Position numbers and translations under genes: made by a program. The notes beneath the pieces are model-generated. The model was not told the origin of the DNA. It was given only the letters and a program-made list of their open reading frames with translations, and ran no database searches. DNA of 35,025 nt from a virus (Duplodnaviria > Caudoviricetes): positions 1 to 35,025 of IMG/VR virus record IMGVR_UViG_3300044709_000203; one strand, given 5' to 3'. Of this stretch, positions 1 through 20,424 are shown one piece after another (within the stretch, counting starts at the first letter, position 1; each line of letters opens with the position of its first letter).

Positions 1-261
1 GGCGAACAACTGCACGTACTCGAACAGCGCTGCGTCGTCGACGATCGAGAGCGTCCCGGCGTGTTCGAGGCGATCGCACATCCGCTCCCACTCGGCGAGC
101 TCGGCGCCGGCGAGCGGCCGCGGCGGAGTCGGTCGACCCTTCGGTGGCGCCAGCGTTTCGAGGTGAGCGTGGCGATCGGCGCGGTACGTGCCCTCGATCC
201 GGTGCTCTCGTGCCGACTTGGCGTTGTGGCCGCCGGAGCGCTGCCCCTTAACGCCTGCCAT
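1..261 (-). CDS. terS: Terminase small subunit (P27-like), second copy, 3'-truncated by the window edge
   Basis: Not in the ORF track. Manual translation from ATG 261 gives MAGVKGQRSGGHNAKSAREHRIEGTYRADRH...EWERMCDRLEHAGTLSIVDDAALFEYVQLFA, a clear paralog of 15816..16391; it lies downstream of an HNH gene and a cos-like site. Confidence 0.88.
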   Translation of the reverse strand, partial: MAGVKGQRSGGHNAKSAREHRIEGTYRADRHAHLETLAPPKGRPTPPRPLAGAELAEWERMCDRLEHAGTLSIVDDAALFEYVQLFA

Positions 262-285
262 TGGTACAACCCGCTAGAATTTTTT

Positions 286-367
286 TCATTTTGCTGCCAA
301 CGTCCGAATTTGCCTCCCGCGGACTCGCGCGCGGCCACCGGAGGGACTTTTCGACCCCCCTACCCCC
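286..367 (-). other. cos-like packaging initiation site (second element)
   Basis: Minus strand GGGGTAGGGGGGTCGAAAAGTCCC...GCGCGAGTCCGCG...AGGCAAATTCG...CGTTGGCAGCAAAATGAAA between HNH and TerS; matches 16434..16515 block by block. Confidence 0.65.
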
Positions 368-752
368 AATCCTCCGAAACTGGTGCAGGCTGCTGCCTGC
401 TCGTCGTCGGCTCGCGTCCGAATCCACCCTCGGCCGCGATTCCCTTCTTCGCGTTGCATCGCTTGCAGCTCGGTGCCCAGTTGCTCGGGTCCCAGAACAG
501 CGCGCGGTCTCCCTTGTGCGCGCGGCGATGGTCGACGAGCTGTGATGCCGCGCCGCAGTACACACATGTGGGATGCACGCGAAGGAAGTCCTTGGACGTG
601 CGTCGCCATTTCGCATCGTAGAGATGTTGATGTGTTCGCACGAACCGCGCCGCGCGCTCTTTCTTCGAGCAGCTCGCGCAGAATCCGCGGTGTGTTCCGC
701 GGCCTGAACATGCCGGCGTGCGACACGGCCCCTTCGGCGCGAGCGGGCTCAT
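360..752 (-). CDS. HNH endonuclease (terminase-associated, HK97 gp74-like), second copy
   Basis: CVYCG...VDHRRAHKGD...SNWAPSCKRCNAKK motif; N-terminus PLAPKGPCRTPAC resembles 16727..17089. Confidence 0.88.
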   Translation of the reverse strand: MSPLAPKGPCRTPACSGRGTHRGFCASCSKKERAARFVRTHQHLYDAKWRRTSKDFLRVHPTCVYCGAASQLVDHRRAHKGDRALFWDPSNWAPSCKRCNAKKGIAAEGGFGREPTTSRQQPAPVSEDWG

Positions 753-1069
753 CGCGAGAACACTCGAATCAGCGGCGCATGCTCACCGCTCGGGACGCGG
801 TTTCCGACATCGGTCAGACGAAATCGCAAACGGAATGGTGAGCCTGAGACGTAGAAGTCCGAGCTACTCGGATTCAACACCAGCTCGCCGATCTCGCCGT
901 TGGTGAGCGTGAGCTTGCCGCTGCTGTCGAACACGGTCACGCCGTTCGCGTCTTCCAGTACCGCCTGAATTCGCAGTCCGAGAATGTCGAGGCCGAGACC
1001 GTCCGCTTTCAATGTGAACGGCAGCGCGCCGGTCCAGCCTTCAACGATTTCCAGTGGCGCGTGAATCAT
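749..1069 (-). CDS. Small beta-sandwich protein, BppU N-terminal/Ig-like virion-protein-like
   Basis: Pattern G.T.ALPFTLKADG..DILGLRIQAVLED...TNGEIGELVL..SSSDF..SG.FRLRFRLT; coupled by 4-bp overlaps to both neighbours. Confidence 0.5.
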   Translation of the reverse strand: MIHAPLEIVEGWTGALPFTLKADGLGLDILGLRIQAVLEDANGVTVFDSSGKLTLTNGEIGELVLNPSSSDFYVSGSPFRLRFRLTDVGNRVPSGEHAPLIRVFSR

Positions 1070-1344
1070 CTGAGCGTCGCGGTCTCCGGCGTGAGCTGCC
1101 GCGTGAGCTGGATCGTCGTTTCAGATTCGCCGGCCCACTTCCGCGCCAGGCGCTCGACGGCTTCGCGTGTGAATCGGACTGCGCGTAAGCCGGGAATGCG
1201 AACGGGATTCAGAATCCCTTCACGAACCCAGATGAAGATCTGTCGCTCGCTCACGCCGAGAAATGCGGCGACGTCACGTACGCGCAGCATGAACGGCTCG
1301 ACCGCTGGGCGCGGCGCCTGAGCGTCTGATCTACGCCGCGGCAT
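1066..1344 (-). CDS. Excisionase/AlpA-like helix-turn-helix protein
   Basis: MLRVRDVAAFLGVSERQIFIWVREGILNPVRIPG..VRFTREAVE; start re-assigned to ATG 1344. Confidence 0.8.
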   Translation of the reverse strand: MPRRRSDAQAPRPAVEPFMLRVRDVAAFLGVSERQIFIWVREGILNPVRIPGLRAVRFTREAVERLARKWAGESETTIQLTRQLTPETATLR

Positions 1345-1540
1345 CGGTTTTCTCCAACGATGATCGGCGGCGTTCGGCGAGTTGTTGCACGGTCGCGCGT
1401 TCGAAGATGCGCCAGCCGCTCGCTGTGCGAAATGCCAACGGCAGCGCGCCGCGACTCTCCATCTCGCGCACGCCATTGGGCGTGATGTCGAGCAGCTTCG
1501 CGGCTTCCGATACGGTGAGGAATCTCGAGTTCTGATCCAT
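1331..1540 (-). CDS. MerR/excisionase-like HTH DNA-binding protein
   Basis: FLTVSEAAKLLDITPNGVREMESRGALP..RTASGWRIFERATV; purine-rich RBS (GAAGGGA) upstream. Confidence 0.82.
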   Translation of the reverse strand: MDQNSRFLTVSEAAKLLDITPNGVREMESRGALPLAFRTASGWRIFERATVQQLAERRRSSLEKTDAAA

Positions 1541-1585
1541 TCCCTTCGTTCCTTTGTTGTTTTACGCGCGCGGGGGAAAGGCGGG

Positions 1586-1677
1586 AAAAAAACAAAAGGC
1601 CCGTCCCCCCGCGCGTTTGGGCCTCTGCGCGGTGAACGGGCCTCTTCCGATCTGCTGACTCAGAGAGTAACTGGTGT
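1586..1677 (-). promoter_or_regulatory. Structured leader / terminator-like hairpin with GAGGCCC motifs (copy A)
   Basis: Minus strand ACACCAGT...CAGATCGGAAGAGGCCCGT...GCGCAGAGGCCCAAACGCGC...ACGGGCCTTTTGTTTTTTT; stem plus U-run, homologous to 11610..11699. Confidence 0.6.
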
Positions 1678-1755
1678 ACCTACCAAAGATCAATCAGCAG
1701 TTTTTCCCGCGCTCCACTTTCCGTGACGATCTGTGAATCGCGTTTCGCCGCCGTT

Positions 1756-1886
1756 TTTGTGACCAACTTTGTGACCATTGTGTCCTCAGCGTCGTTCAGA
1801 TCGATGCGTGTTCATGCGGTCCGACTGAGTTTCCACGTCGAACGCCTGATCGGAACCTATCGTGTTGATTCTCTTCACGTTTAGGT
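1756..1886. mobile_element. Putative attachment-site junction (arm-type direct repeats plus dif/core-like imperfect palindrome)
   Basis: TTTGTGACCA at 1756-1765 and 1768-1777 (degenerate third copy at 1778-1785); imperfect inverted repeat ACCTATCGTGTTGA-TTC-TCTTCACGTTTAGGT at 1855-1886, 15 bp from the stop of the LamG gene. Confidence 0.45.
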
Positions 1887-1901
1887 CTCGCTGCGTCGCG
1901 T

Positions 1902-3872
1902 TCATCCTGAGAACTCCACGGTGCGCAGGATCCCCGCCGCGAGCGGCGCCGATGCGGTCCGTAACGCGTAATGGGCGGCCACGCGCGCCCCGGGCAGCGC
2001 GGCGGCGTACAAGGCGACCTCATCGATCCGGCCATTAAAGCCTGATCCCGCGACCTGTGAATAACGACCGATCACGAAACGATCCAGTGTGCCGACCAGA
2101 TCGACCGCGCCGCTGAGCCCTGCCAGCGTCCCCACCTGCACACCATTGACGTAGGCGATGATCGTGGCACCGTCGTAGGTGACCACCACGTGATGCCAGG
2201 CGCCGGCGACGACCGCATTCGGCGCGGATGTCAGCTGCTGCTGACTGCCGCCAATCTGCAGTGAGACCGAGAGCGCGCCAGTCGGCAGCACGCTGACCCA
2301 GTTGTGCGATTGAAACGCGGTGGCGATGAGCGTGCTTTGAGTCGGTTGCGCAAGCGTCGCAGGATTTCCCCAGGCTTCGAGCGTCACCGCACTGCTGACA
2401 GAGCCGCCGACCGGGTTGAAGATCACGGTGATGCGTGTGGTATCCGCTCCGTCGAACAGCATCGACGTCGTGCCATCCGCCAACGCGCCAGGCTGGCCGA
2501 GTGTGATGCCCGTCGCGAAGAGTGAGCCATCATGACCGCCACCGCCGATGTCCTTGGCGATGAGGCCCGTCAGCTCGTTCAGGCGCCAATAGGCCGTCGG
2601 ACCATCCGCCAGGATCGCTGCTTGATAAGCGTCAACCGTGGTCGCGACGACGAGCGTGCGCGTGACGCCGCGACTCATGACCGTGCGGAGCACGCCATCG
2701 ACGACCGTTCGCGCCGGTCCAGTCGCCACCGTCGCGCGCACCGGCGCGCGCGACGTCACCGTCGCGACGATGATGTTGGCCGGGAGCTCGGCGCCGCCTA
2801 TGACGCGCGGCGCCGGCGCGATGAGGGCGACGGTGCTCGGTTGAGTCCCACCGGACGCGCTGTCGATGGCGACCGACCCTGGGACGAGGGTCGCTGTGGG
2901 TGCCGATACCGCGACCGTCTGCGCGCCCGCGTTCAGGCGCGTCTCGCTCAGCCGAATCGCCGTCGGCGCGGTGATCGTGACGACGTTCGCGCCAGCCGCT
3001 CGTGTGACGGCGGTGACGGTGCGCGTCGCCACCGGCGCCGTGACGGCGATCGTCTGCGTCCCAGCCGGCAGGGCGGCCGTCGCGATCCGTGTCGCCGTCG
3101 GCGCGGTGATGACGACGAGGTTCGTGCCAGCGGCCAGCGTCTTCAGAGCCAGCCGGACGGCCGGCGGCGCCGAGATCGCGACCGTCTGGATTCCAGCCGC
3201 CCGCGTGACGGCGCCGCTGACGACGGTCGGCGCCGGCGCGGCGAGGGCAATCGTCTGGACGCCGGCGGCGAGGGTCGACGCCTGGCTGATTCCCGCTGGC
3301 GGCGCTTTGATCGCAATCGTGTTCGCGGCAGCGGTCAGGGTTCGGACGCCCGCCGCGGCCGACGCGCTCGGTGCGGTGATCGCAATCGTCGTCGCACCAG
3401 CCGGCACCTGCGCCGCACCAGCGCTCAGCGACGCCGTGGGCGCCGTGATCGCGATCGCGCTGGTGGACGCCGAAAGGACCTTGCCGGTACGGATGGCCGC
3501 CGTCGGCGCCGTGATGGCGAGCGTCGTCGTCCCAGCCGGCAGCGATCGCGCGCCAGGCGTCAGCGTGGCGGGTGGCGCGGTGATGGCGATCGTCGTCGCG
3601 CCCGCGCTCAGCGCTCGAGCACCGGGTGCGAGCGTGGCCGTCGGCGCCGTCAGCGCGATCGTGTTGGCGCCGGCGGCAATCGTGACGGCGCCGGCGCTGC
3701 GTTGCGCCGTCGGCGCCGCGATCGCAATCGATTGTGATCCCCCGCCAAGCAGGACCGCGCCAGCGAGCAGCGCCGCAACAGGCGCCGAGATCGCGAGTCG
3801 AGCCGGTCCGGCCGAGACCTGCTGGCTGGAGGTGCCGGCGTAGTCGTAGTAGATCGGAAAAATGAGGCGCAT
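1902..3872 (-). CDS. Ala/Thr-rich repeat protein with C-terminal LamG/concanavalin-A-like domain (fibre/adhesin-like)
   Basis: About a dozen ~25-aa repeats (L.AG..TIAITAP.A); C-terminal AYWRLNE..G...SMLFDG...WHHVVVTYDG...YVNG...FNGRIDEVALY LamG signature. Confidence 0.82.
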   Translation of the reverse strand: MRLIFPIYYDYAGTSSQQVSAGPARLAISAPVAALLAGAVLLGGGSQSIAIAAPTAQRSAGAVTIAAGANTIALTAPTATLAPGARALSAGATTIAITAPPATLTPGARSLPAGTTTLAITAPTAAIRTGKVLSASTSAIAITAPTASLSAGAAQVPAGATTIAITAPSASAAAGVRTLTAAANTIAIKAPPAGISQASTLAAGVQTIALAAPAPTVVSGAVTRAAGIQTVAISAPPAVRLALKTLAAGTNLVVITAPTATRIATAALPAGTQTIAVTAPVATRTVTAVTRAAGANVVTITAPTAIRLSETRLNAGAQTVAVSAPTATLVPGSVAIDSASGGTQPSTVALIAPAPRVIGGAELPANIIVATVTSRAPVRATVATGPARTVVDGVLRTVMSRGVTRTLVVATTVDAYQAAILADGPTAYWRLNELTGLIAKDIGGGGHDGSLFATGITLGQPGALADGTTSMLFDGADTTRITVIFNPVGGSVSSAVTLEAWGNPATLAQPTQSTLIATAFQSHNWVSVLPTGALSVSLQIGGSQQQLTSAPNAVVAGAWHHVVVTYDGATIIAYVNGVQVGTLAGLSGAVDLVGTLDRFVIGRYSQVAGSGFNGRIDEVALYAAALPGARVAAHYALRTASAPLAAGILRTVEFSG

Positions 3873-3875
3873 GTC

Positions 3876-4631
3876 TTATCGCCTCGCGTGAGTCCCGACG
3901 CCCAGCAAGGTCCGCATCGGCGTGGCTGCGCCGCCGGCGGGCGCGAAGCTCTGCACGCGGTCGGCCCACGTATCGCTCGCTTCCGTGAAGGTGGCGTTCT
4001 GCGCCGAGCTGCTCGTGCCCGTCGTCAGGTCTTCAGTGAACAAGTCCTGAAAGCTCGTGTTATCCGTCTGCGTCGACCGCGTCTCGAACTGCCAGCCCGA
4101 GCCGGCCGTGACTGCATTCGTCGATTCGTTCGTCATCGCGCCGATGAAAAACGAATTGGCCGCGGGCGCCGGCGTGCTGGTGCCGCTCGCGGGATTGGCG
4201 CCCGTATTGGTCGCCGCGATCGAATCGCCGTTGTAGCTCGTCGTCGCGGCGCCCGACAGCGCCCACGCGATCGCCGTGCAGCCGTTGCCGCTCGCATGGC
4301 CCGTCACGACGAAGCTGGCCCCACCGGTCACGTTCTCGGATCGGTACACGGCGAGCTTGGCGTTGTTCGCGGTCGTCGTCGTGGTGCCGATCTGCGTATA
4401 GGTATTGGACTGCGTGTCGGTCGGCGCCGAGATGGTGATGCCCAGGCCGAAGGTCGACACGCCGACGACGATGGTGTCGCCCGTCACGGGCGAGGTCACG
4501 AACGTTCCGGTCGCGCAGCTCGTGGTCGGTGCACCGCTCGTGTGGCCCTCGGCGATTTCGCGTTTGGCGATCGCCGCCTCCACCGACGTGGCCAGACAGA
4601 CCAGCAGCAGCGCCAGACTAAAACGTCGCAC
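3876..4631 (-). CDS. Secreted Thr/Ser/Gly-rich beta-strand protein
   Basis: Sec-type signal MRRFSLALLLVCLATSVEA; G(D)TIVVGV...DTQSNTYTQ pattern; Cys pair. Confidence 0.7.
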   Translation of the reverse strand: MRRFSLALLLVCLATSVEAAIAKREIAEGHTSGAPTTSCATGTFVTSPVTGDTIVVGVSTFGLGITISAPTDTQSNTYTQIGTTTTTANNAKLAVYRSENVTGGASFVVTGHASGNGCTAIAWALSGAATTSYNGDSIAATNTGANPASGTSTPAPAANSFFIGAMTNESTNAVTAGSGWQFETRSTQTDNTSFQDLFTEDLTTGTSSSAQNATFTEASDTWADRVQSFAPAGGAATPMRTLLGVGTHARR

Positions 4632-5103
4632 TGATCCCCCAGGAGAATGACTGATTCACGACGAACGATCCGCGCAAGTCCATCGACTCCCCGCCCCAGC
4701 GCGTGCCGAACTTGATCAGCCCCGTGCCATCTTTCGTCGTGCTGTTACTCGTGAAGTGATCATTTGGGTCGCTCGGGTCGTTGCCCAAGAGGAACCCCCA
4801 GGTCGCGCCGCCATCGAGCGAGCGTTCAACCAGCACGCGCATCGTCAATCCCGGCGTCGTCGGCCACACGGACGACTCGATCGTAAAGTTGATGTTCCCG
4901 TTGTTCGCGGGCGTCCCGGCGTTGATGTGGACCGGCGTGGGACCACAGAACGAACAGCCACCGACCGTGGGATCGCCGACGTGGCCGAACGCGATCGATG
5001 TGTGAGCCGCCTCGGGAACCAGCGTGACGGTCGTCGCCGAGAGCGGGACCACCAGCGCGAGCACGAAGACGATCGCGAGCAGTCGACGCAGCTTCATGGC
5101 CAC
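4618..5103 (-). CDS. Secreted hypothetical protein
   Basis: Signal peptide MKLRRLLAIVFVLALVVPLSA; Asp-box-like RSLDGGATW; GAGG RBS. Confidence 0.7.
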   Translation of the reverse strand: MAMKLRRLLAIVFVLALVVPLSATTVTLVPEAAHTSIAFGHVGDPTVGGCSFCGPTPVHINAGTPANNGNINFTIESSVWPTTPGLTMRVLVERSLDGGATWGFLLGNDPSDPNDHFTSNSTTKDGTGLIKFGTRWGGESMDLRGSFVVNQSFSWGISATF

Positions 5104-5109
5104 CTCACC

Positions 5110-5598
5110 TTACGGAGCTTGGTAATAGCTCGCCGACCACGTCCACGCGGTGTTCGTCGCGGCCGCGGGCGACACGAACGTGGTCGCGGTGCCGGGCGAC
5201 GCGCTCTTGACGCAGCCGGTGTTGGCGATCCCCCAGCCTTCGATGACGTCCAGGTTGCCGTTGACCGTCGCGGCGAACGACAACTTCAGCGCAAAGCTAT
5301 TGAAATTGGTGCTGCTGGTCGTGACGTTCGTGTTGACCGACGCCGTCCCGTTCTGACTGCCGTTCAGATGCAACGAGCAGACGTAGTTGTAGAAGTTCGG
5401 CGCCGGCGCCGGGATCGTGAGCGTGACCTGGTTGTTCACCGCCGCGGTCGCGGAGATGGGCACCAGCGGGAACTGCGTCTGTAACACGACCGGTTGCGCC
5501 GACGTGGTCGACTGATACGCCGATTGCGCGTAGACCAAGCTCCCCACCATGAGCGTGGTCACGACAGCGGCGAAGACGAAGCGTTTGATCACGGACAT
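5110..5598 (-). CDS. Secreted Ser/Thr-rich protein, paralog 1
   Basis: Start at ATG 5598 with AGGAGG RBS; signal MSVIKRFVFAAVVTTLMVGSLVYA; mature part QSAYQSTTSAQPVV...YYQAP is nearly colinear with 5610..6098. Confidence 0.78.
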   Translation of the reverse strand: MSVIKRFVFAAVVTTLMVGSLVYAQSAYQSTTSAQPVVLQTQFPLVPISATAAVNNQVTLTIPAPAPNFYNYVCSLHLNGSQNGTASVNTNVTTSSTNFNSFALKLSFAATVNGNLDVIEGWGIANTGCVKSASPGTATTFVSPAAATNTAWTWSASYYQAP

Positions 5599-5609
5599 TG
5601 GCGGTCCTC

Positions 5610-6098
5610 CTACGGAGCCTGGTAATACGTGGCGTCCCACTCGAATTGCATGTTGGCGGTGCCGGTCGGCGACACGAACGTGGTCGCGGTGCCGGCCGCT
5701 GCGCTTCGGGCGCACCCCACGTTGGCGATGCCCCACGCGTCGAACCAGTCATAGTTCTGGTTCGCGACGTTGTTCAGCGAGAACTTCAGGGCCCAACTGT
5801 TGAAATTCGTCGACGTGGTCACGCCGTTTGAGAGCGCCGTCGTCGCGGTGTTGTCGTGCGAGGCGTTGAAGTGGATCGTGCAGACATAGTTGTAGAACGT
5901 CGGCGGCGGCGTCGGAATGGTCAACGTCACCTGCGTGCTCGCGCCACCGGTCGCGCTGACCGCAATCAGCGCGTACTGCGTTTGAATGACCACGGGCTGG
6001 GCCGAGGTCGTCGTCTGGTACGCGGACTGCGCCGCGAGATGCGGCGGCGTCAGGATGGCAAGCGCCAGCAGCGCGACCGCGAGAGCGAGGTTTCTCAT
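5610..6098 (-). CDS. Secreted Ser/Thr-rich protein, paralog 2
   Basis: Signal MRNLALAVALLALAILTPPHLAA; QSAYQTTTSAQPVV...FYNYVC...GC...ATTFVSP...YYQAP; GGAG RBS. Confidence 0.78.
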   Translation of the reverse strand: MRNLALAVALLALAILTPPHLAAQSAYQTTTSAQPVVIQTQYALIAVSATGGASTQVTLTIPTPPPTFYNYVCTIHFNASHDNTATTALSNGVTTSTNFNSWALKFSLNNVANQNYDWFDAWGIANVGCARSAAAGTATTFVSPTGTANMQFEWDATYYQAP

Positions 6099-9145: not shown

Positions 9146-9421
9146 TTACGTCGTTTCGTTCATGCGCAGCACGTCGACGACGATGCTGCCGGTCGATGTC
9201 CCGTAGAGCGCGTCCCACGGCTGCAGCGTGATCTGCAGCGGGATGTCGCCCGTCGAGAGCTGGTACCCGCTGGTCGTCACGCCGGAGCTACCGAGGTACA
9301 CGTTCGCGGCGCCGCGGTTGCGCACGATCACGCGCAACGATCCGAAGCCGGGCCCGCCTGGGACGTTCGCGATCGCCGTCGGACTCGTGGTCAGCGCGAT
9401 GGTCAAGCCCTGGACGGCCAT
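9146..9421 (-). CDS. Small beta-sandwich virion decoration-like protein
   Basis: LRVIVRNRGAANVYLG..GVT..GYQL..G...ALYG pattern; AAGGAG RBS. Confidence 0.6.
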   Translation of the reverse strand: MAVQGLTIALTTSPTAIANVPGGPGFGSLRVIVRNRGAANVYLGSSGVTTSGYQLSTGDIPLQITLQPWDALYGTSTGSIVVDVLRMNETT

Positions 9422-11579: not shown

Positions 11580-11609
11580 GGCCACCTCTCGGGGGCCAGC
11601 CCACAAAGG

Positions 11610-11699
11610 AAAAGGCCCCATCACTGCGCTCCGGGCCTCTTGCGCGTGATGGGGCCTCTCCGAAATCTGACGGCCTCTCAGGGCCTGTCCTACTGGTGT
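11610..11699 (-). promoter_or_regulatory. Structured capsid-gene leader / attenuator-like hairpin with AGGCC repeats (copy B)
   Basis: Perfect 12-bp stem AGGCCCCATCAC/GTGATGGGGCCT followed by UUUU on the minus strand; four AGGCC motifs; lies between the Com-like gene and the capsid gene. Confidence 0.62.
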
Positions 11700-11717: not shown

Positions 11718-11900
11718 TCACGTCGAGACTCCGATCCGATAGTTCATGAAGTCGCACTTCGAGCATTTCACCTCGACGACCTTGCCCGGCCTCAGCGCCG
11801 CGATGTCGATACGCAGCAGCATGCGACCGCAGCCGTTGCAGCGCATCGCCTCGAGGCTGCGCAGCTGCCCGTCGCGAATCGCCGGCGCTACGGACGCCAC
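11718..11900 (-). CDS. Mu Com-like zinc-ribbon protein
   Basis: MRCNGCGRMLL...VEVKCSKCDFMN (two CxxC pairs with Com-family spacing). Confidence 0.78.
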   Translation of the reverse strand: MASVAPAIRDGQLRSLEAMRCNGCGRMLLRIDIAALRPGKVVEVKCSKCDFMNYRIGVST

Positions 11901-12592
11901 GCCTTCGCCTTGTTCACGGCTTCACGGGCTTCCTCGCGCCGCTGCTTTCCAGCATCATCATCGACGACGGGAGTCGTCGCGGTCCGTTGCGCCGCGGCAT
12001 CAGCCGGCTGCTGCTGCACAGCCGCCGCCTTCGCGGCCGCCGCTTTGTCGGCGCCGCCCAATTCTCCAGCGATGTTCTTGCTCCGCGCGCTGACGGTGGT
12101 CTCTTCGTACGCCGGAAACGTCACGGGCCCGACGTCATACACGCGCGCACGCTTGATCGTGCGCAATGGTAGTTTCGCGGGATCGTCACGCGTCCACGTT
12201 TCGTCGTCGTCGTTCTCGACTGTGAAGGAAAAGCTGCTGCCGGTGACATCGCGGCGCTTGATCTTGGCGCCCACCGACATCGCCTCGGGATCGTCGGGAT
12301 TCAGCCGCGCCACATAGAGGAGGCCGGTTTTGTCCTCGCTGACGTCAGCGGTGCGCGCGGCATTGCGACCCAGCACGTAATTGGGACTGTGATTGAACAG
12401 CACGCGGATGTCGTCGTCTTGGACCGTGTCGCTGAACGCGCCCGGGGCAATCACTTCGCGAAAGTAGTCGCCGATCACGGTCTCGACGCCGTAGAGCGCG
12501 CCGTACCCCTCGATCGACGGCGACGCGCCGTCTTTCGCGCGCACCTCGATCAGGGCCGAGGTCACCATGCGGCGTTCGATTTCGCGTGCCAT
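11888..12592 (-). CDS. HK97-family prohead protease
   Basis: IEGYGALY, FREVIAPGAF, LFNH, GSSFSF, DVGPVTFPAY; AGGAG RBS upstream of ATG 12592. Confidence 0.93.
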   Translation of the reverse strand: MAREIERRMVTSALIEVRAKDGASPSIEGYGALYGVETVIGDYFREVIAPGAFSDTVQDDDIRVLFNHSPNYVLGRNAARTADVSEDKTGLLYVARLNPDDPEAMSVGAKIKRRDVTGSSFSFTVENDDDETWTRDDPAKLPLRTIKRARVYDVGPVTFPAYEETTVSARSKNIAGELGGADKAAAAKAAAVQQQPADAAAQRTATTPVVDDDAGKQRREEAREAVNKAKAWRP

Positions 12593-12594
12593 CG

Positions 12595-13926
12595 CTACAT
12601 CACTCCTTCGGGTTCGGAGACGGTCGGTTTCGGCGCCGGCGTCGGCTCCGGCTCCGTCACGACAGGCAGACCATTGCCCGTCACCGGCGCGTAGTTCTGC
12701 GGCATCCAGAACACCTGGCCGGCGCCGCCGTCGATCGGATTGAGGTCCTCGAGCTCGCGGATCTCGTCGCCGTTCAACCAGCCGTTCTGACGCGCCACCG
12801 CGTACGCATCGAATCGCGTCTTGATGTCGCCGCGCACGAGCGCGTTCACCACGAACAGCGCCGTGTGCGTATTGAAACTCTTGCGGCTGAGGAGATCGCG
12901 CGCGATGACCTGTTGCCACAGCTGAAACCACGGCATCATCGTGATGTTCAGGAACCCCCGCATCTGTTGCTCGATCCCGGATCCCCAGCTCGTGTCCTTC
13001 GTTTGGTTCTGGATCATGAACAGCGGCACGCGATAGATCCGAGCTGCCGATTCGACTTGCGCGCCGCGCAGCTTATCGAGCTGCGATTTCTCCGGGTCGA
13101 CGCCGACGACGTGAATCTGAATGCCTTCTTCGAGGATCGCGAACTTGTTGGCTTTCTTCGCGCCCATAAACTTCTCGAGCCAGGAGCGCCGGATGTTTTC
13201 CTTGGCCGCCGGCGTGAGCGTTTTGGGATGCGTCGCGATGATGCCGGGAATCGCCCCGTTGCCGAACCAGGCGCCGACGTAGTCCTCGGCCGCCTTCGTG
13301 ATCCCGAGCGACTCGCGATTGATCAGGAGCGGCGATCGCCCGTCAAGACCGTCGTCGCTGTTGATGTGGAGGTGCAGGATGTCCGGACGATCCGGGTTGT
13401 GCTCCCACACCTGATAATCGCCGCGTCCCATCCAGTACGAGAACACCTTGCGGCCGAGCGCGTTCCGTTCGACGAACATCCGCGCCGGGTGCAGCGGCCA
13501 GAGCGCGGTCACATCGCCGCGCCGATCGCGCTGAATCTGCGCATACGCGCGGCCCCAGCCAGCGGTATGGCGCGTCAGGATTTCTTTCCCCTGGTACGCG
13601 GTCAGCTCGGGGTTGAACGCGTCGTGCAGGAGGTAATAGAGCGGGTGCTCGACGTCCGGCTGCTTGCCGCCCTCTGGCAGCAGACGATTGATCTTGGTCG
13701 GCAGCTGGCCCACCGTCTCGCTGAGCACGCGCTGGCAGGCGTAAATCGCTGGCAGGCCTTCAGCGATCGGCACGCTGATGTCGACGCCGGCGGTGGTCTT
13801 CCCGCCGTTCAGCAACGACGTCAGCCACGATGCGGGATTCGTGAGCGTCCCGCCGTTGTCGTACTCGCCGCTGTTGGCGGGCACGATGTGATCACGCCGT
13901 TCGAAGAATGAAGCCAGGCGTCCCAT
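12595..13926 (-). CDS. HK97-family portal protein
   Basis: AIYACQRVLSETVGQLP, GLDGRSP, FGNGAIPG, ILEEG, ARIYRVP, NEIR-like GDEIRELEDL. Confidence 0.95.
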   Translation of the reverse strand: MGRLASFFERRDHIVPANSGEYDNGGTLTNPASWLTSLLNGGKTTAGVDISVPIAEGLPAIYACQRVLSETVGQLPTKINRLLPEGGKQPDVEHPLYYLLHDAFNPELTAYQGKEILTRHTAGWGRAYAQIQRDRRGDVTALWPLHPARMFVERNALGRKVFSYWMGRGDYQVWEHNPDRPDILHLHINSDDGLDGRSPLLINRESLGITKAAEDYVGAWFGNGAIPGIIATHPKTLTPAAKENIRRSWLEKFMGAKKANKFAILEEGIQIHVVGVDPEKSQLDKLRGAQVESAARIYRVPLFMIQNQTKDTSWGSGIEQQMRGFLNITMMPWFQLWQQVIARDLLSRKSFNTHTALFVVNALVRGDIKTRFDAYAVARQNGWLNGDEIRELEDLNPIDGGAGQVFWMPQNYAPVTGNGLPVVTEPEPTPAPKPTVSEPEGVM

Positions 13927-14081: not shown

Positions 14082-15889
14082 CAGACCGTGAAGATCTCCG
14101 CGCCTTCGGCTTCGTAAATTGATCGACCGCCCGACGGATTGCGCACGATGGCCTGATCGATTGCCATGATCAGCGCGACGATGCCGTCGATCTTTTCGCC
14201 GGCCGCGTCTTTGTCAGGGCGGATCTCTTTGTTGCGGCCATGGCGCACGACGAAGTTCGATGCCATCCAGGACAGAATCGCGTTGCCGCCGCACAGGAAC
14301 AGCGCCTCGGCGATCAGCTCGAGCGTCCGCTTCGTCGCTTCGTTCAACTGAAAACCCTGCGGCGTTGGCACGACGTCGATGCCGCGGCCCTGGAGGTACT
14401 GCGCCATCTGATGCGCGAAGCGCGGGTCATACGCCAGCGAGCGCACACCGGACTCGAGGCAGTCCTGCTCCACGGCCTCCTGGACCGCGGCATAGTCGGT
14501 CGTGTCGCCTTCGGTCACCTCGAGCAGGCCGGCGCGGCGCCATTCGTCGTACGGCCGATTCGGGTATTTCTCGAGCGCCGCCTGCGGCAGCCAAAAGCGG
14601 CACTTCACGGGGATTCGGCCGTCATCGAGAATCCAAATCCGGATGGATGCGCACAAGTCATCGCTCTGTCCGAGGTCGAGGCCCGCGAAGCAGGGCGCGT
14701 CAACGAGCTCCGCGTCCGAGACGGTGCCCTGGCACAGCGCCCATTTCGCCTGGTCGATCGCGCGCGTGTGCGCGTTCGTCCAGACGCAGAAATTCAGGCG
14801 GAGCACCGTATTGGTCTCGGATGGAATGTTCTTGGCGTTCTCGACCTGGCGCCGGAGGTACTCGGGCGTGATCGTGACGCCGAGCAGCGGATTCGCTTTG
14901 ATCCAGCACGACTCATCGACGAGCGGATCGTCGCCCTCGTCGAGCGCGCAGACATACGCGAAGAAGCGATCGTCGACGACCGTCTGCTGGAGCACGCGTT
15001 CGGCGTGCTGATGCAGCTGCCACGCGATGGACGTGCGATCGAAGCCGCTGTTCGTGATTTTGACGGCGAGCGGCTGCTTGCGGAATTTGAAGCCGGCCTG
15101 CAGCTTGTTGATCGTGTCGGCCGACGGATGCTCATGGACCTCGTCGATGAGCGCCATGTGCGGCCGCTTCCCGGACTTCGATCCCTGGTTCCGCGAGTAG
15201 GGCCGGAAAAACGACTTCGTCGCCGCGTACGAGATGGTGCCGATCCCGCGCGGTTCGCCGGCCGGCGTGCGCTTCAGCAGCTCGCAGAGCTCGGGTGACA
15301 CGTCGACCATGCGTTCGGCATCGCGCATGAGAATCGCCGCCTGGTCGAGATCGACGGCGGCCGGATAAATCTCCGCCGCGTACTCGTTGTCGACCACCAG
15401 GCCGTAGAGCCCGAGCCCCGCGACAGTCGGCGTCTTCGCGTTGCCCTTGCCCATCTCGATGTAGGAATCGCGAAACCGGCGATAGCCGTCAGTACCGAGC
15501 CAGCCCGTCAGCGCGCCGACGATGAACGTGAGCGCCGGCTCGAGCAGAAACGGCTTCGGATTGCCGGCCTCATCGAGCGTGTCCGGGAGCCGCAGCACAT
15601 GCTCGAAGAACCCGATCGCGACGTCGGCCGCGTCCGCGCTGAACGACCAGCCTCCTGGATGGCGCGTCGGCGATGCGGCCAGCGCACGGTCGCGGAGATG
15701 TCGCTCGCAGGCGAGACGCACCCACGGCCCAGCGACGATCGGCTCGCCGGCGGTGGCATCGCCGAGCACACGTCGCGCATACAGATCGACGCGGTGGCCG
15801 AACGGCGCCCAGATGCTAGGCGCCGAATCGGACGACGCGCGCTTTCTGCTGGAGCGCGGCGAGCGAGTTCTTGGGCTGCTGTGGTTCAT
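14081..15889 (-). CDS. terL: Terminase large subunit (HK97/Terminase_1 type)
   Basis: RRFR, Walker A-like MGKGNAKT, Walker B ALIDEVHEH, WIKANP, nuclease GLDLG, KIDGIVALIMA. Confidence 0.95.
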   Translation of the reverse strand: MNHSSPRTRSPRSSRKRASSDSAPSIWAPFGHRVDLYARRVLGDATAGEPIVAGPWVRLACERHLRDRALAASPTRHPGGWSFSADAADVAIGFFEHVLRLPDTLDEAGNPKPFLLEPALTFIVGALTGWLGTDGYRRFRDSYIEMGKGNAKTPTVAGLGLYGLVVDNEYAAEIYPAAVDLDQAAILMRDAERMVDVSPELCELLKRTPAGEPRGIGTISYAATKSFFRPYSRNQGSKSGKRPHMALIDEVHEHPSADTINKLQAGFKFRKQPLAVKITNSGFDRTSIAWQLHQHAERVLQQTVVDDRFFAYVCALDEGDDPLVDESCWIKANPLLGVTITPEYLRRQVENAKNIPSETNTVLRLNFCVWTNAHTRAIDQAKWALCQGTVSDAELVDAPCFAGLDLGQSDDLCASIRIWILDDGRIPVKCRFWLPQAALEKYPNRPYDEWRRAGLLEVTEGDTTDYAAVQEAVEQDCLESGVRSLAYDPRFAHQMAQYLQGRGIDVVPTPQGFQLNEATKRTLELIAEALFLCGGNAILSWMASNFVVRHGRNKEIRPDKDAAGEKIDGIVALIMAIDQAIVRNPSGGRSIYEAEGAEIFTV

Positions 15890-16391
15890 CCGTTCCGTTC
15901 GTCCGTACCCGACTGCGCGACGCCGGCGTCAAGCCAAACTCCACGAGGTACTGCCGGAGCGCCATGTGTCCCTGCCGCAACTGCACGCGCTGTTTCGATG
16001 CGAGCTGCTCGAGCGTCACGATCCGATCGATCGCGCCGAACAACGATTCGCCCGTCAGCCGCTTCGCTTCGTTCTTTAACTCCGCGGCGAGGCTCAGCAG
16101 CTCGCTGTCCTTCGCCTTGATCGCCTGCGTCTCCGCGAACAACTGCACGTACTCGAACAGTGCCGCGTCGTCGACGATCGACAAGGTCTGCGACTGCTCG
16201 AGTCGCGTGACCATCCGGTCCCATTCGGCCTGTTCGACGTCCGTCAACGGCGCCGGCGGCCGCGGGATGCCCTTCGGCGGCTCCGGGTTCGTGATGCCCT
16301 CGTGCCGCGTCCGGTTGAACGTGCCTTCCAGCTGGTGCTGCTCGACGTGTTTCGCGTTCCGGCCGCCCGACCGGCCCTTCACGCCAGCCAT
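15816..16391 (-). CDS. terS: Terminase small subunit (P27 family)
   Basis: MAGVKGRSGG.., PP..L...EWDR, C-terminal EFGLTPASRSRV; directly upstream of TerL. Confidence 0.92.
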   Translation of the reverse strand: MAGVKGRSGGRNAKHVEQHQLEGTFNRTRHEGITNPEPPKGIPRPPAPLTDVEQAEWDRMVTRLEQSQTLSIVDDAALFEYVQLFAETQAIKAKDSELLSLAAELKNEAKRLTGESLFGAIDRIVTLEQLASKQRVQLRQGHMALRQYLVEFGLTPASRSRVRTNGTDEPQQPKNSLAALQQKARVVRFGA

Positions 16392-16433
16392 CGCGTTCGC
16401 TGCACTCCCCCGGCAAAGTCATTCGCCGCCGAA

Positions 16434-16515
16434 TTTCATTCGCTGCAACGCCACGAAAATGCCTGCGGCGCGGTCCGCGCGCCCCGGCGTGGGGACTTTT
16501 GATCCCCCCTACCCC
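16434..16515 (-). other. cos-like packaging site of the main phage
   Basis: Minus strand GGGGTAGGGGGGATCAAAAGTCCCC...GCGCGGACCGCGCC...AATGAAA between HNH and TerS, the canonical cos position in HK97-like phages. Confidence 0.68.
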
Positions 16516-16670
16516 TCCGCGTCGACGTCGCTGTCGCGCGGTGCGCTCGTCTCATCGCGCTCATCGCTCGTCGTGCAGGCTGGGCACGTCCACCGCACCA
16601 CACGTAAAGCTCGAAGGAAGCGCGCGTCGTTGTAATTGAGGTGCAGCGGATGACGGCAGCCGCTGCTCAT
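16509..16670 (-). CDS. Small hypothetical protein (53 aa, CxxC)
   Basis: MSSGCRHPLHLNYNDARFLRALRVVRWTCPAC...; not in the track. Confidence 0.35.
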   Translation of the reverse strand: MSSGCRHPLHLNYNDARFLRALRVVRWTCPACTTSDERDETSAPRDSDVDAEG

Positions 16671-16726
16671 CTCTTAATCGAGAATCACGACCAGCGATTC
16701 GAGCAGTCTCCACAACAGGTCAGCCA

Positions 16727-17089
16727 TCACTGTCTCCCCCACCCGCTCTGTTCGAGTGCTGTCCGCCGTGAGTGGTGCGGCTTGCACTTCGGTCTCAAGT
16801 TGCTGTCCGCATGAATCTGCTTCCACGACCAGCCACGACGTCGCGCGTCCTTCACCGTCACGATGTGGTCAGCTTCGGTTGCTGGTGCGGGACATTCATC
16901 ACAGGTCGGATGCGCTGCGAGAAATTCGGCGCGTCGCTCCGGCCAATTCGTCGACGTGCCGTACCCACGCTGCGCGCTCGTTCCACGCGCGCGTTCTGCG
17001 CGGAGCTCGCACTCAACGCAGAGGCCTCGACGGATTGCTCGACCCGGACATCGTGGTGTACGACATGGACCTCGAGGAGCAAGCGGCAC
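16727..17089 (-). CDS. HNH endonuclease (terminase-associated)
   Basis: SAQRGYG..W..RR.EFLAAHPTCDEC...ADHIV...NLRPKCKPHHSRRT; start probably GTG 17089 by analogy with 360..752. Confidence 0.9.
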   Translation of the reverse strand: MPLAPRGPCRTPRCPGRAIRRGLCVECELRAERARGTSAQRGYGTSTNWPERRAEFLAAHPTCDECPAPATEADHIVTVKDARRRGWSWKQIHADSNLRPKCKPHHSRRTALEQSGWGRQ

Positions 17090-17264
17090 TGGTAATAAAA
17101 AGGTGGGGACCGTTCGACATGGCGCGGCGCTCAGTCGCAACCGAGCGAGCGATTGTTCGCAGGTCCCGTTAGCTCAGGGCCGAGGATCGCTGAGCCGGCG
17201 TGCGCGAGGAAGGGGGCTCCGGCCGAAATGGATCCTGTTCCCGCTCAATGACCGTTATTCCGTC

Positions 17265-17672: not shown

Positions 17673-18467
17673 TCATACTCGGTACGGCGTCATCGCCGCT
17701 TCGCAGGCCATCACACATTTGTTTCCGTGGCCGAGCGCCGTTTCGGCGAATCGAATATTGCGGACGTACTCGCTGAATTGCGACGGCGTCATCGCATGCG
17801 GTGCATCGGGATTCTGCGGGTCGGTGTCATCGAGTCGAAGATGCGCTTCGATGATGCGGGCGCCGGCGGCGACGGCCAGCGCACCGGTCCACGTCTCGAT
17901 CGGAGACGAATGGTCGGAGAATCCGTCCATCCCGTAGCCGATGATGACAGACAGGTTCAGCGATTCAACGGGAGCGGGATAGCTCGAAACGCAGTGCAGC
18001 CAGGACACGTCGCTGCTGACATCCGACCACTCATCTCTGAGCGCCCAGTATTCTCCATCCCCGATCATTCCCGTGCTGACTATGATCTCTCGATCATCGA
18101 ACGAACGGTGCGCATCCATCAGCGCGACATCGGCGGCCTCGAAGCTGGCCACCTTGAACCGACTCACGAACGGCGCGACGACCTCGACGTCCTCGGGCAA
18201 GTACGTCGTGCACATGAACTCGAGGCCCTGGTTGTCGCAGCGCGCCTTCAGCAGCGCGAGCGAGGCCTGCGGCAGTTGATACCGCCGATAGATCTCTCGA
18301 TATGCGTCGGCGTGTCGACGCTCAGCGAGTCGATCGGCAGAACTCCAAAACTGGAATTTCGCGACGTCGGCGCCGCACGACCTCGCGACGTTGATCAGAC
18401 GGATGGCCTGCAACGGTTCGCCATCGTGGCAGCTGCCGATCTCGGCGATCACCAACGTGCGGTTCAC
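17673..18467 (-). CDS. neuB: NeuB/PseI-family nonulosonic acid synthase
   Basis: VIAEIGSCHDG, GADVAKFQ, FKVASFE, IIVSTGM, LHCVSSYP, GFSDHS, GARIIEAH; no C-terminal SAF/AFP domain. Confidence 0.92.
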   Translation of the reverse strand: MNRTLVIAEIGSCHDGEPLQAIRLINVARSCGADVAKFQFWSSADRLAERRHADAYREIYRRYQLPQASLALLKARCDNQGLEFMCTTYLPEDVEVVAPFVSRFKVASFEAADVALMDAHRSFDDREIIVSTGMIGDGEYWALRDEWSDVSSDVSWLHCVSSYPAPVESLNLSVIIGYGMDGFSDHSSPIETWTGALAVAAGARIIEAHLRLDDTDPQNPDAPHAMTPSQFSEYVRNIRFAETALGHGNKCVMACEAAMTPYRV

Positions 18468-18850
18468 TTCCGGCCTCGCAGCTCGAAATTCGTGCCGCTC
18501 GTCTGTATGTAACCAATCCCGACGGCGCGAACATCGATGCGTAACGGGCCAGGCATCAGGCCGGGCATCGCGACTTGCCAGCCCGAACCGAAGTCGTATC
18601 GATCGATATCTCTGGTGGCCTGAATGTCCGTGATGATGGCGACCGCTTCGCCGCGATCGTTGTACAGAATCTCGCCGGTCGTCGACGGTCCGTTTCGCCA
18701 GCGCGGCGGTTCCTGAAGCAGCGTGACTGGTGCGTCCTTCACGAGCGGCGCCGCGAAGGCCTCGATCTCCTTCGGCGTCGCCGCGATAATCAACCCGGCC
18801 GACGTCACGCCACCGAACAACCCTTTGAGAAATCCTCGTCGTTCAATCAT
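18464..18850 (-). CDS. Twin-arginine signal-like protein
   Basis: MIERRGFLKGLFGGVTSAGLIIAA; ATGA overlap with the upstream gene. Confidence 0.65.
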   Translation of the reverse strand: MIERRGFLKGLFGGVTSAGLIIAATPKEIEAFAAPLVKDAPVTLLQEPPRWRNGPSTTGEILYNDRGEAVAIITDIQATRDIDRYDFGSGWQVAMPGLMPGPLRIDVRAVGIGYIQTSGTNFELRGRK

Positions 18851-19266
18851 GCGAGTTGTCCCACGAGTTGCCGACGCGACCAGTCGCGGCCGCAGGTCCG
18901 GCACTCGAACGTATCCGGCTTCGTCGAGCGCTTCAGCCGGCCGCCGCACGGTTCGGCGATGACCATCTTCTTCTTCTCGTTTTGGTAGATACGCTGATAC
19001 GGGCAGCGCGCGACGTAGCGAGATTTCAATGCTTCGAGGTTCGCCCAGTACGCGGCCAGGAACCGATCGAGCGATTCGCGTGCCGCCTTCCGCCTCGCGC
19101 GCATCGCGGCGAACGTCCATCGGGTCTTCGCGACGGCCGCGACGACCATCGCGGCGGCGGAGGGTGACAACACAGCCTCGCGCCGGCGCCGTTCAGCGCG
19201 TCGAGCAATTCGTCTGGCGCGGCGCCGATGTTGCGCCGGCGTGCGCGGTCCGGTCCGATACTGCAT
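18847..19266 (-). CDS. Hypothetical basic Zn-ribbon protein
   Basis: RCPY...PCGG...FECRTCGRDW; coupled to its neighbours. Confidence 0.55.
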   Translation of the reverse strand: MQYRTGPRTPAQHRRRARRIARRAERRRREAVLSPSAAAMVVAAVAKTRWTFAAMRARRKAARESLDRFLAAYWANLEALKSRYVARCPYQRIYQNEKKKMVIAEPCGGRLKRSTKPDTFECRTCGRDWSRRQLVGQLA

Positions 19267-20037
19267 CTACGGTTTCTCCCAAATCCACAGGCGGCCTTGC
19301 GCCCAGGGCCCGACGCTCGGCAGCTGCAGGGCCAACTGATTGATCCGGGCGTCGTAGCGCGGCGGCAGTCCTTCGTCGTGCGCCAGCGCGGCGTTCACGA
19401 CTCGACTGAGGAAGTAATAGGTCGACGAGAACGGGACGCAGCGCAGCAGCCGCAGACTCGTGACGTCGAAGAGCTCCGCATCCCGCAGGTACCGGTTGTG
19501 CCACGGCCGCTCGATCGGTTCGAGCCCGAGTTTCAGGCGTTCGACGTTGATCGCGTCCACACCGTCCTGGCTGTTCTCGCACATCAGGTATTGGCCGCCG
19601 CGCAGCAACCGGTCGGCGATCGTGTCGAGCGCCAAGCGCTGCTCCTCCCACGTCGTCAGATTGATCAGCATGCGCTGCGTGTAGATGAGATCGAACTGCA
19701 CGTCTGGGAGCGCGGCGACATCGCCGACCTCGAACTGGAGGTTGTGGCCGACGCCCTCGGTCCGGGCGGCCGCGATCATCGCGGCGGCGTTGTCGAGGGC
19801 GAGAAACTGCACGTCCGGCAACGCCATCGCGAGCTCGCGCGCCGTGTCGCCGCGGCCGCACCCGATCTCAAGGACATGCCTCAAGGGGTAGTCGTGCCAG
19901 AACGCGCCGCAGGCCTCCTGCAGCGCTTGACGCTCGAGCTGCTTGGCCAGCAGGTCCTGTGTCCCGGCGCGCTCACCCAGGGCGGCACGCTGGTTCCAAT
20001 GCGATCGGATCTGTTCGCGGGAGGTCGGACTCATCAA
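19267..20037 (-). CDS. Class I SAM-dependent methyltransferase
   Basis: VLEIGCGRG, LALDNAAAMI, FDLIYTQRMLINL, LLRGGQYLMCE. Confidence 0.88.
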   Translation of the reverse strand: MMSPTSREQIRSHWNQRAALGERAGTQDLLAKQLERQALQEACGAFWHDYPLRHVLEIGCGRGDTARELAMALPDVQFLALDNAAAMIAAARTEGVGHNLQFEVGDVAALPDVQFDLIYTQRMLINLTTWEEQRLALDTIADRLLRGGQYLMCENSQDGVDAINVERLKLGLEPIERPWHNRYLRDAELFDVTSLRLLRCVPFSSTYYFLSRVVNAALAHDEGLPPRYDARINQLALQLPSVGPWAQGRLWIWEKP

Positions 20038-20225
20038 CGTCCTTTGGCCAATCGACGTGACAGCGCTTGTACCTGCCGGTCGCTGGCGACGATCTTCTGC
20101 AAGATCTCTCGCGCCCGCTGGGGCGCGAGCTCGAATGCCAGCCGCATCAGGTCCATCCAGTGCCCGTTATTCCGCGCGCGGATCCGCTGAATCCGCGCGA
20201 TGAGGCGACGGTCACGAGTCGCCAC
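20034..20225 (-). CDS. Small helical hypothetical protein
   Basis: IQRIRARNNGHWMDLMRLAFELAP; GGAG RBS before GTG 20225. Confidence 0.62.
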   Translation of the reverse strand: MATRDRRLIARIQRIRARNNGHWMDLMRLAFELAPQRAREILQKIVASDRQVQALSRRLAKGR

Positions 20226-20424
20226 GCTGTCTCCGTTCGAGATCGTGCCGTAGCATCTGGACGCACGTCTCATTGATCCCTTTGTCGATCGCCTGCTCGA
20301 GGTTCATCGCGAGCCGTTCGATGCGTTCGCGCGCGGCGCTGCCGACCTGTGGATCGACCCGGCTCATGGCCAACCGCAGTCGATCGAGCTGCTCGAACAT
20401 CCGCCGCAACTCGCGCCAGGTCAA
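20212..20424 (-). CDS. Small helical hypothetical protein
   Basis: Fills the gap in the operon; TTG start. Confidence 0.5.
   Translation of the reverse strand: MTWRELRRMFEQLDRLRLAMSRVDPQVGSAARERIERLAMNLEQAIDKGINETCVQMLRHDLERRQRGDS

What the first reader, a model, noticed from the sequence alone, without database searches (positions are those of the whole stretch)
1..1886. Second HNH-cos-TerS module: candidate satellite abutting or inserted in its helper
Seen: right after the LamG gene comes an att-like site, two Xis/AlpA-like HTH genes, an Ig-like gene, then HNH, a cos-like site and TerS. The last three are diverged paralogs of the main phage's 15816..17089 region, in the same order and orientation. 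Known: PICIs and related satellites carry AlpA-like regulators, their own TerS and/or HNH, and cos sites to redirect helper packaging. Inference: this is a satellite matched to this very phage, physically linked to it and possibly interrupting its structural operon.
Basis: partly seen in the sequence, partly recalled or inferred. Interest (0 to 1): 0.82.

Follow-up and report, generated by a model that had tools for sequence, protein, structure and literature searches.

The report
Tape-measure satellite embedded in helper phage
A small DNA element is joined to a soil phage exactly where the phage's tail genes normally begin and carries its own versions of that phage's DNA-packaging and tail-length genes, with no capsid gene in the part recovered, so it is likely a parasite that sits inside its helper phage and would borrow its particles, a layout already described for gut bacteria.

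Summary
Observation confirmed, interpretation largely supported. Window 1-1898 is the upstream end of a separate element, joined to an otherwise intact temperate cos-type phage at a 9-bp block spanning the LamG stop and the start codon of the phage's own Ig-like gene. Intact phage contigs run on into a full neck and tail module. Two metagenome contigs extend the element 5 kb: TerS, orf, prohead protease, HK97-gp10, orf, tape-measure protein (TMP), with no TerL, portal, capsid or tail tube. The join recurs in 2 of 6 runs laid (one borderline); 4 show the intact phage. Protease (74%), TMP C-terminus (69%, last 120 nt identical) and a leader hairpin match this phage best; HNH does not. Att-bounded relatives, some with TMP, occur in Vicinamibacteria genomes. 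It works like a helper-embedded PICI (PMC10111431) with a PLE/EPIP-like TMP. Not seen: the far end, an integrase, a primase. A hybrid in which the element replaced the tail genes stays open (about 0.2). This scan has noted embedded and TMP-bearing satellites before on other DNA.

The parts
1..261 (-). Element TerS, 5' part (199 aa when completed by L007); P27/Terminase_4 family
   Evidence: 56% aa to helper TerS
284..366 (-). cos-like intergenic stretch between HNH and TerS (packaging site inferred)
   Evidence: 76% over 86 nt to 16434-16515, E 3e-5; G-rich block kept in allele L008
360..752 (-). Element HNH endonuclease, terminase-associated type
   Evidence: PF01844, phrog_144; 33% to helper HNH
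749..1069 (-). Ig-like (BppU_N-like) gene: optional cassette, paralog of the helper gene at the insertion point; window allele lacks 3 conserved codons
   Evidence: 48% to helper gene; joint 755-1073 without it in X1, X2, X3 and a 9-nt longer allele in X2; gap in alignment A2
1066..1344 (-). HTHb, Xis/AlpA-like HTH_17 protein (start codon uncertain)
   Evidence: 54% to an HTH of island L095
1331..1540 (-). HTHa, Xis/AlpA/MerR-like HTH_17 protein
1590..1653 (-). Terminator-like leader hairpin shared with the helper's leaders of the capsid and tail-tube genes
   Evidence: 78% to G001 1953-2015, E 5e-7; fold z -3.55; alignment; no further confident hit in 229 loci
1756..1777 (.). Doubled 10-bp motif, period 12: likely integrase arm-type sites
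   Evidence: 122-143 bp from the crossover
1822..1898 (.). Element att arm, allele A (allele B, a diverged homolog, in X2, X4, X6)
   Evidence: 18/30 identical and 29/30 purine/pyrimidine-matched by eye, probabilities
1899..1907 (-). Crossover: 9-bp block GGATGAACG holding the LamG stop and the helper Ig start codon
   Evidence: L010/L011 match the window only from 1899
1902..3872 (-). Helper LamG-domain virion gene, last helper gene before the insertion
   Evidence: PF13385
11605..11666 (-). Helper copy of the leader hairpin, before the major capsid gene
11888..12598 (-). Helper prohead protease, closest relative held of the element's protease (L007 1313-2110)
   Evidence: 74% aa over 171 residues, next best 51%
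15816..16391 (-). Helper TerS
   Evidence: PF05119
16434..16515 (-). Helper cos-like stretch
16727..17140 (-). Helper HNH
   Evidence: phrog_144

Best explanation
Window 1-1898 is the upstream end of a separate element that is joined, co-oriented, to the phage's late operon at the LamG stop / Ig start, and it is likely an integrated PICI-like satellite of this phage that would excise and be packaged in helper heads with its own tape-measure protein. Shown: the join, the intact alternative, the gene set (2 HTH, HNH, TerS, protease, gp10, TMP; no TerL, portal, capsid, tube in 7.1 kb), att-type anatomy, att-bounded relatives. Inferred steps: (1) a tyrosine integrase at the unseen far end, as in relatives, made the join at the 9-bp block; (2) helper late transcription runs through LamG and the helper-type leader hairpin into the two Xis/AlpA-like genes, which trigger excision and restore the LamG-Ig join, so tail genes are delayed until the satellite is out; (3) element TerS and HNH steer the helper's TerL to the element's cos-like site; (4) the TMP, foreign in its N-terminal 570 residues and helper-like at its C-terminus, nucleates chimeric tails from helper parts; (5) the captured Ig gene backs up the interrupted one.
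For: Intact phage: L010, L011 and loose ends at 1899 in X2, X4, X5, X6 continue into Ig, adaptor, closure, terminator, tube, chaperone, gp10, TMP; G001 adds tail tip, a tRNA-3'-like attP and the phage's own integrase. Joined form: X1 contig of 8,643 nt, 107 nt left of 1899, 0 differences over 1792-6000; X3 contig 1792-1928. Element genes are intact, with many synonymous changes (protease 58 syn / 44 nonsyn; TMP block 43 / 29) and protease His and Ser motifs kept (motif identity recalled). All 31 closest viral TerS loci (L016-L046) have TerL next, the element does not. Pairing: helper TMP is the top hit of element TMP 400-861 among 26 (69% vs 49% or less); protease 74% vs 51% or less; hairpin only in this pair. 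Family: 5 of 9 Vicinamibacteria genomes with a TerS hit (401 searched) hold TerL-less islands; 7 of 8 islands tested are bounded by tRNA-end repeats; L095, L220, L223 carry TMP and integrase without TerL, portal or capsid hits; 4 of those 7 show a doubled motif 89-132 bp inside the upstream att, against 122-143 bp here and 132 +/- 2 bp in HE-PICIs (PMC10111431).
Against: The far end, second att and integrase were not seen; L007 and L008 stop inside TMP where the last 120 nt are identical to the helper, which a replacement hybrid would also give. No primase or replicase lies between HTH and HNH, where L189, L191, L194, L195 and L095 have a replication-type or large unknown gene. G001 begins only 2 nt before the crossover, which fits a second upstream neighbour but not a 7-9 bp shared core. 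Arm A cannot be phased with the rest from contigs alone (break at 1792-1821). TerS is not sister to helper TerS (9-row clade, SH-aLRT 88, quick tree) and HNH has a better hit elsewhere. The Ig cassette inside the element is seen only in the window. No expression, particle or excision data.
Confidence: 0.65

Rival explanations
1. Replacement hybrid: the element is a real satellite, but in the joined molecules it has replaced the helper's Ig-to-TMP interval (about 6.1 kb) through the join at 1899 and a homologous crossover in the identical TMP stretch, leaving a phage-length, tail-defective derivative that needs an intact helper.
For: TMP identity rises to 100% over the last 120 nt where contigs break; no attR-Ig contig among the 3 viral contigs holding the Ig start; the swap would keep genome length nearly unchanged, whereas a full insertion adds about 10 kb (inference from relatives' sizes).
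Against: The join has att anatomy with family-typical spacing; the identity gradient (0.55 to 0.98) with synonymous changes suggests repeated gene conversion, not one crossover; the element also exists apart from the join with the phage intact (X2, X4, X6); in relatives TMP is followed by small genes and an integrase.
Confidence: 0.2
2. Decayed prophage remnant: the element is what is left of a related prophage after loss of TerL, portal, capsid and neck genes, and has no parasitic function.
For: Gene order is collinear with a phage late operon; no replicase or integrase seen.
Against: No stops or frameshifts in 10 genes, synonymous-rich divergence, several circulating alleles, and the same reduced gene set in unrelated att-bounded islands.
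Confidence: 0.08
3. Assembly chimera or a second complete prophage abutting the first.
For: The window ends in a TerS stretch shared by both paralogs, and several graph forks lie at 325-334, 755/1073, 1085, 1821 and 1899; 4 of 6 runs lack the join.
Against: Only 9 bp are shared at the crossover, too short to mislead an assembler; the join is rebuilt in X1 and X3; no morphogenesis set in the 5 kb extension.
Confidence: 0.07

Closest known systems
Helper-embedded PICIs (HE-PICIs; founder 11capE), Tommasini, Mageeney and Williams 2023, PMC10111431 (parts 1, 3-6 of 8 and passages read)
   Same: Sits in the helper's late operon, co-oriented; short identity block; doubled arm motif about 130 bp from the core; AlpA/HTH_17 regulator; captured late genes, including a homolog of the target gene that differs at the att-like site; cos shared with the helper.
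   Different: Likely Acidobacteriota host, not enterobacteria; no integrase between att and the HTH genes; no primase zone seen; different arm motif, period 12; crossover at a gene boundary; own TerS, HNH and TMP ('tape measure' and 'Acidobacter' occur 0 times in that paper's main text).
PICIs as modelled by SatelliteFinder, PMC10085698 (passages read)
   Same: Regulator, TerS, occasional HNH and protease; relatives add integrase, primase and tRNA att sites.
   Different: Tail genes are 'forbidden' in that model and this element has TMP and gp10; primase and integrase not seen; no capsid gene.
PLE11 and other PLEs of Vibrio cholerae with own TMP, PMC12987554 (passages read)
   Same: Satellite TMP alongside helper tail parts; chimeric tails shown there by experiment.
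   Different: PLEs parasitise a lytic myovirus and also encode a chaperone and hub; here the helper is a temperate cos siphophage, the satellite is joined to it, and the TMP C-terminus is copied from the helper.
EPIPs of Mycolicibacterium aichiense, PMC12822802 (part 1 of 2, the main text, read)
   Same: About 11-kb satellites with TerS, HTH and TMP that use a temperate helper.
   Different: EPIPs have a serine integrase, adaptor and stopper, little homology to their helper, and were found as separate circles; this element has strong helper homology and is joined to the helper.

Membership tests
HE-PICI | Integrated in a late gene region of the helper | tested here: met
   Join at LamG stop / Ig start; intact form in L010, L011, X2, X4, X5, X6. 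One end only.
HE-PICI | Co-oriented with the late genes | tested here: met
   All element genes on the same strand as the late operon
HE-PICI | attL and attR share an identity block of 7 bp or more | tested here: inconclusive
   9-bp block at one join; second join not found
HE-PICI | Integrase directly after attL, ahead of alpA | tested here: not met
   Only non-coding DNA between 1899 and HTHa
HE-PICI | Integrase of the 11capE clade | not testable with these tools
   Integrase not recovered
HE-PICI | Doubled arm motif at fixed distance from the core | tested here: met
   Doubled motif 136 bp centre to centre; sequence differs from the published motif
HE-PICI | Late zone of captured helper late genes | tested here: met
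   TerS, protease, gp10, TMP, Ig paralogs
PICI (SatelliteFinder model) | AlpA/MerR/Stl-type regulator | tested here: met
   HTH_17 and MerR hits
PICI (SatelliteFinder model) | Small terminase | tested here: met
   PF05119
PICI (SatelliteFinder model) | Integrase | tested here: inconclusive
   None in the 7.1 kb seen; far end missing; present in relatives
PICI (SatelliteFinder model) | Primase-replicase module | tested here: inconclusive
   Absent from its usual slot and from the 7.1 kb seen; a fork at 1085 in X1 and X4 may lead to another allele
PICI (SatelliteFinder model) | No tail genes | tested here: not met
   TMP paralog and HK97-gp10
cf-PICI | Own TerL, portal, capsid and head-tail connectors | tested here: not met
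   None between TerS and TMP
TMP-bearing satellites (PLE, EPIP) | Own TMP built into satellite particles | not testable with these tools
   Gene present by homology to the helper TMP; no Pfam or PHROG TMP hit of its own; particles untested

The most novel reading that the evidence does not exclude
A widespread Vicinamibacteria family of tape-measure-carrying satellites normally sits at tRNA genes; here one member has re-evolved its att arm (allele B to A) to target the start of its helper's tail operon, has no replicase of its own and is copied in cis by the helper, reads the helper's late leader signal, keeps its TMP C-terminus matched to the helper by gene conversion, and carries a back-up of the target gene from which the att-like core was deleted in frame.
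Probability: 0.25. Interest if true: 0.72.

Novelty: new variant of a known kind. Interest (0 to 1): 0.52.

Why it matters
It would extend helper-embedded satellites to Acidobacteriota phages by an independent route and join that layout with tail hijacking through a satellite TMP, two traits so far published apart. Empty and occupied helper forms and two att-arm alleles coexist in public soil runs, so retargeting of a satellite from host sites to helper late genes can be followed in a natural population. The TMP, foreign at the N-terminus and helper-identical at the C-terminus, points to the part that must fit the helper's tail tip. TMP- and TerS-bearing islands of this class would be rejected by SatelliteFinder's PICI model and are easily filed as broken prophages.

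Tried and rejected
tRNA or tmRNA at the join: none; Rfam 1-4000: only 4 sub-threshold chance hits; arm region folds no better than shuffles, so no structured RNA there. Sigma-70 promoter scan: 0. orf168: no relative in viral contigs, no usable Atlas hit; protease C-terminal extension: no usable Atlas hit. Element in IMG/VR: not found by TerS, Ig or TMP queries. attR-Ig contig: not among 3 hits. Arm DNA in 401 Vicinamibacteria genomes: 2 weak short hits, not followed to a host site. Test whether island L223's TMP matches the prophage of the same genome: no TMP or TerS match in 60 kb read, so helper-tracking of TMP is shown for this pair only. Consensus fold of the 4 hairpins: 2 of 16 pairs with a double change, covariation term unfavourable; the fourth copy folds no better than shuffles. 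Contig depths (element 3.3-7.9, phage 4.8-9.6) were not used as copy numbers; co-occurrence of element and phage in the runs is forced by the query (1-3800). Of 18 TMP loci fetched, 6 were annotated gene by gene; L219 has TerL and portal, L218 a capsid-family gene, L222 and L217 ORFs that resemble TerL by eye without Pfam hit; the other 12 were only screened by tblastn and 10 of them look like prophages. Careful TerS tree did not finish; the quick tree was used. No complex or structure prediction was run.

Full report
Observation. The window is a whole 35,025-nt virus record. On the minus strand, after the LamG gene (1902-3872), come 360 nt of non-coding DNA, two HTH_17 genes, an Ig-like gene, HNH, an intergenic stretch and a TerS cut by the contig end. 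TerS and the intergenic stretch match the phage's own at 70% and 76% nt; the proteins are 56% (TerS) and 33% (HNH) identical. The description is correct.

The helper. The window holds HNH, TerS, TerL, portal, protease and capsid but no neck or tail genes. L010 and L011 match the window only from 1899 on and continue from LamG into a BppU_N (Ig-like) gene whose start codon overlaps the LamG stop, then adaptor, closure, terminator, tube, chaperone, gp10 and TMP. G001 carries this module on through a 1,117-aa TMP, tail-tip genes, a joined tRNA-3'-like attP, a tyrosine integrase and repressor-like genes. So the phage is an intact temperate siphophage with its own integrase. The four closest TerS loci in GTDB are Acidobacteria / Vicinamibacteria MAGs, which makes that class the likely host.

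The element. One metagenome scan (21 of 64 parts read) gave L007 and L008, which extend the element about 5 kb past window position 1: TerS (199 aa), orf168, a Peptidase_S78 protease, an HK97-gp10-like gene, orf81 and 861 codons of a TMP. TerL, portal, capsid, adaptor, closure, terminator and tube are absent from the places where the helper has them. By contrast 31 of the 31 closest viral TerS loci (L016-L046) have TerL next (that print-out covered L001-L118 of 174 loci). The genes are intact and differ from the helper by many synonymous changes.

The join. Six runs were laid, all as contigs. X1 has an 8,643-nt contig running from 1792 across 1899 without difference; X3 has a 137-nt contig 1792-1928 (30 nt on the right, one short of the tool's bridging rule). 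X2, X4, X5 and X6 have the phage's own Ig start at 1899. The two forms share a 9-bp block (1899-1907). In X2, X4 and X6 the element leaves the window at 1821. The 30 letters shown match 1822-1851 at 18 positions and in purine/pyrimidine class at 29 (counted by eye; chance 1e-4 and 3e-8), so 1822-1898 is the element's own arm in one of two alleles. A 10-bp unit doubled at period 12 lies 122-143 bp from the block and is one of two such exact repeats in the window. With a looser test, 4 of 7 att-bounded relatives show a doubled motif 89-132 bp inside their upstream att; HE-PICIs have one 132 +/- 2 bp from the attP centre (PMC10111431; its supplementary figure was not seen). This makes 1899 an att-type crossover. 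The second join was not found: none of the 3 viral contigs with the Ig start shows it. G001 starts 2 nt before the crossover, which suggests a second upstream neighbour but does not fit a 7-9 bp shared core.

Is it matched to this phage? The helper TMP is the top hit of element TMP residues 400-861 among 26 (69% against 49% or less); identity is 0.2-0.3 up to residue 570, 0.55-0.8 to 810, and the last 120 nt are identical. The protease's best relative among the loci held is the helper's (74% against 51% or less). A terminator-like hairpin before HTHa resembles those before the helper's capsid and tail-tube genes (78%, E 5e-7) and a profile of the four copies found no other confident hit in 229 loci. 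Against: helper TerS is second of the non-self hits and not sister in a quick tree; HNH has a better hit in another locus.

The Ig cassette. X1, X2 and X3 join HTHb directly to HNH (755-1073), so the gene is optional; inside the element it is seen only in the window. X2 holds a separate allele 9 nt longer at 793, which fills a 3-residue gap at a position conserved in 4 of 4 homologs. That allele carries, on the other strand, an 18-of-19 match to the join sequence (worked out by hand; chance about 3e-7 for a gene of this length, noticed after the fact). The window allele lacks exactly the core of that match. This recalls 11capE, whose own capsid gene differs at the att site so as to avoid self-integration; here it is an inference.

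Relatives. Of 401 Vicinamibacteria genomes, 9 have a TerS hit; 5 of them hold TerL-less islands with HTH, replication gene, HNH and/or TerS and an integrase or integrase fragment (L097, L189, L191, L194, L195), and L095 has integrase, the same HTH pair, TerS, HNH, gp10, TMP and two protease-like genes. Seventeen of 401 genomes match the element TMP; of 6 loci annotated, L220 and L223 are att-bounded islands with TMP followed by an integrase at a tRNA and no TerL, portal or capsid hit. Seven of 8 islands tested are flanked by tRNA-end repeats, 6-18 kb apart. L195 has captured a 57% homolog of window gene 9146-9421. In L097, L195, L220, L222 and L223 the integrase lies at the downstream end, which is where ours would be.

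Mechanism. Most likely (0.65) the element is an integrated satellite. Helper late transcription would enter it through the helper-type leader, make the Xis/AlpA-like proteins, and excise it, restoring the tail operon; its TerS and HNH would steer helper TerL to its cos-like site; its TMP would seed tails from helper parts, the helper-identical C-terminus fitting the tail tip. Excision after helper induction is shown for 11capE and chimeric tails for PLE11; TerS-led redirection follows the PICI model; none is shown here. The main rival (0.2) is a hybrid in which the element replaced the Ig-to-TMP interval, since the contigs break where the two TMP genes become identical. Decay (0.08) and chimera or second prophage (0.07) are less likely.

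Novelty. Embedding (PMC10111431) and satellite TMPs (PMC12987554, whose Extended Data Fig. 10 legend also lists cf-PICIs with tmp genes; PMC12822802) are published. It fails strict HE-PICI membership (no integrase after attL) and strict PICI membership (tail genes), while working like both. Searches for 'phage satellite' with 'Acidobacteria' gave 1 off-topic listing, and with 'tape measure protein', 'small terminase', 'helper' 1 review listing; the two key papers do not mention Acidobacteria. The library lacks most subscription journals, so this is not proof of absence. Earlier notes of this scan report embedded satellites in other phyla and one TMP-bearing capsid-less satellite, unchecked. 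Verdict: new variant of a known kind, interest 0.52.

Noticed in passing
window 17673-25126: The helper carries a nonulosonic-acid-type sugar pathway: NeuB, class III aminotransferase, cytidylyltransferase, Polysacc_synt_2 dehydratase and a methyltransferase; possibly virion or host-surface glycosylation.
   Followed up: no
window 11605-11666, 1590-1653; L012 1946-2007, 8368-8429: A repeated long hairpin with a U-rich tail whose loop repeats its own 5' arm sits just before the capsid and tail-tube genes; candidate attenuator or processing site for late genes.
   Followed up: partly
window 26309-27145 (+): Ku gene, on the strand opposite to its neighbours.
   Followed up: no
window 1085: Contigs of X1 and X4 stop at 1085, which may be a third allele downstream of HTHb (perhaps a replication gene).
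   Followed up: no
L013 2277-2350; L012 11332-11971: Helper attP with a tRNA-Leu-like 3' half (identified by eye) in joined form; a HigB/HigA-like toxin-antitoxin pair (identified by eye) after the lysis region.
   Followed up: partly
window 5168-5529 / 5668-6032 and 25430-25593 / 25862-26025: Two pairs of tandem paralogous genes, about 69-70% nt.
   Followed up: no
L097 5500-16378, L189, L191, L194, L195, L220, L222, L223: tRNA-integrated PICI-like islands in Vicinamibacteria with varied cargo (capsid, protease, TMP, captured small virion genes); L097's TerS has an internal stop and an IS-like insert nearby.
   Followed up: partly
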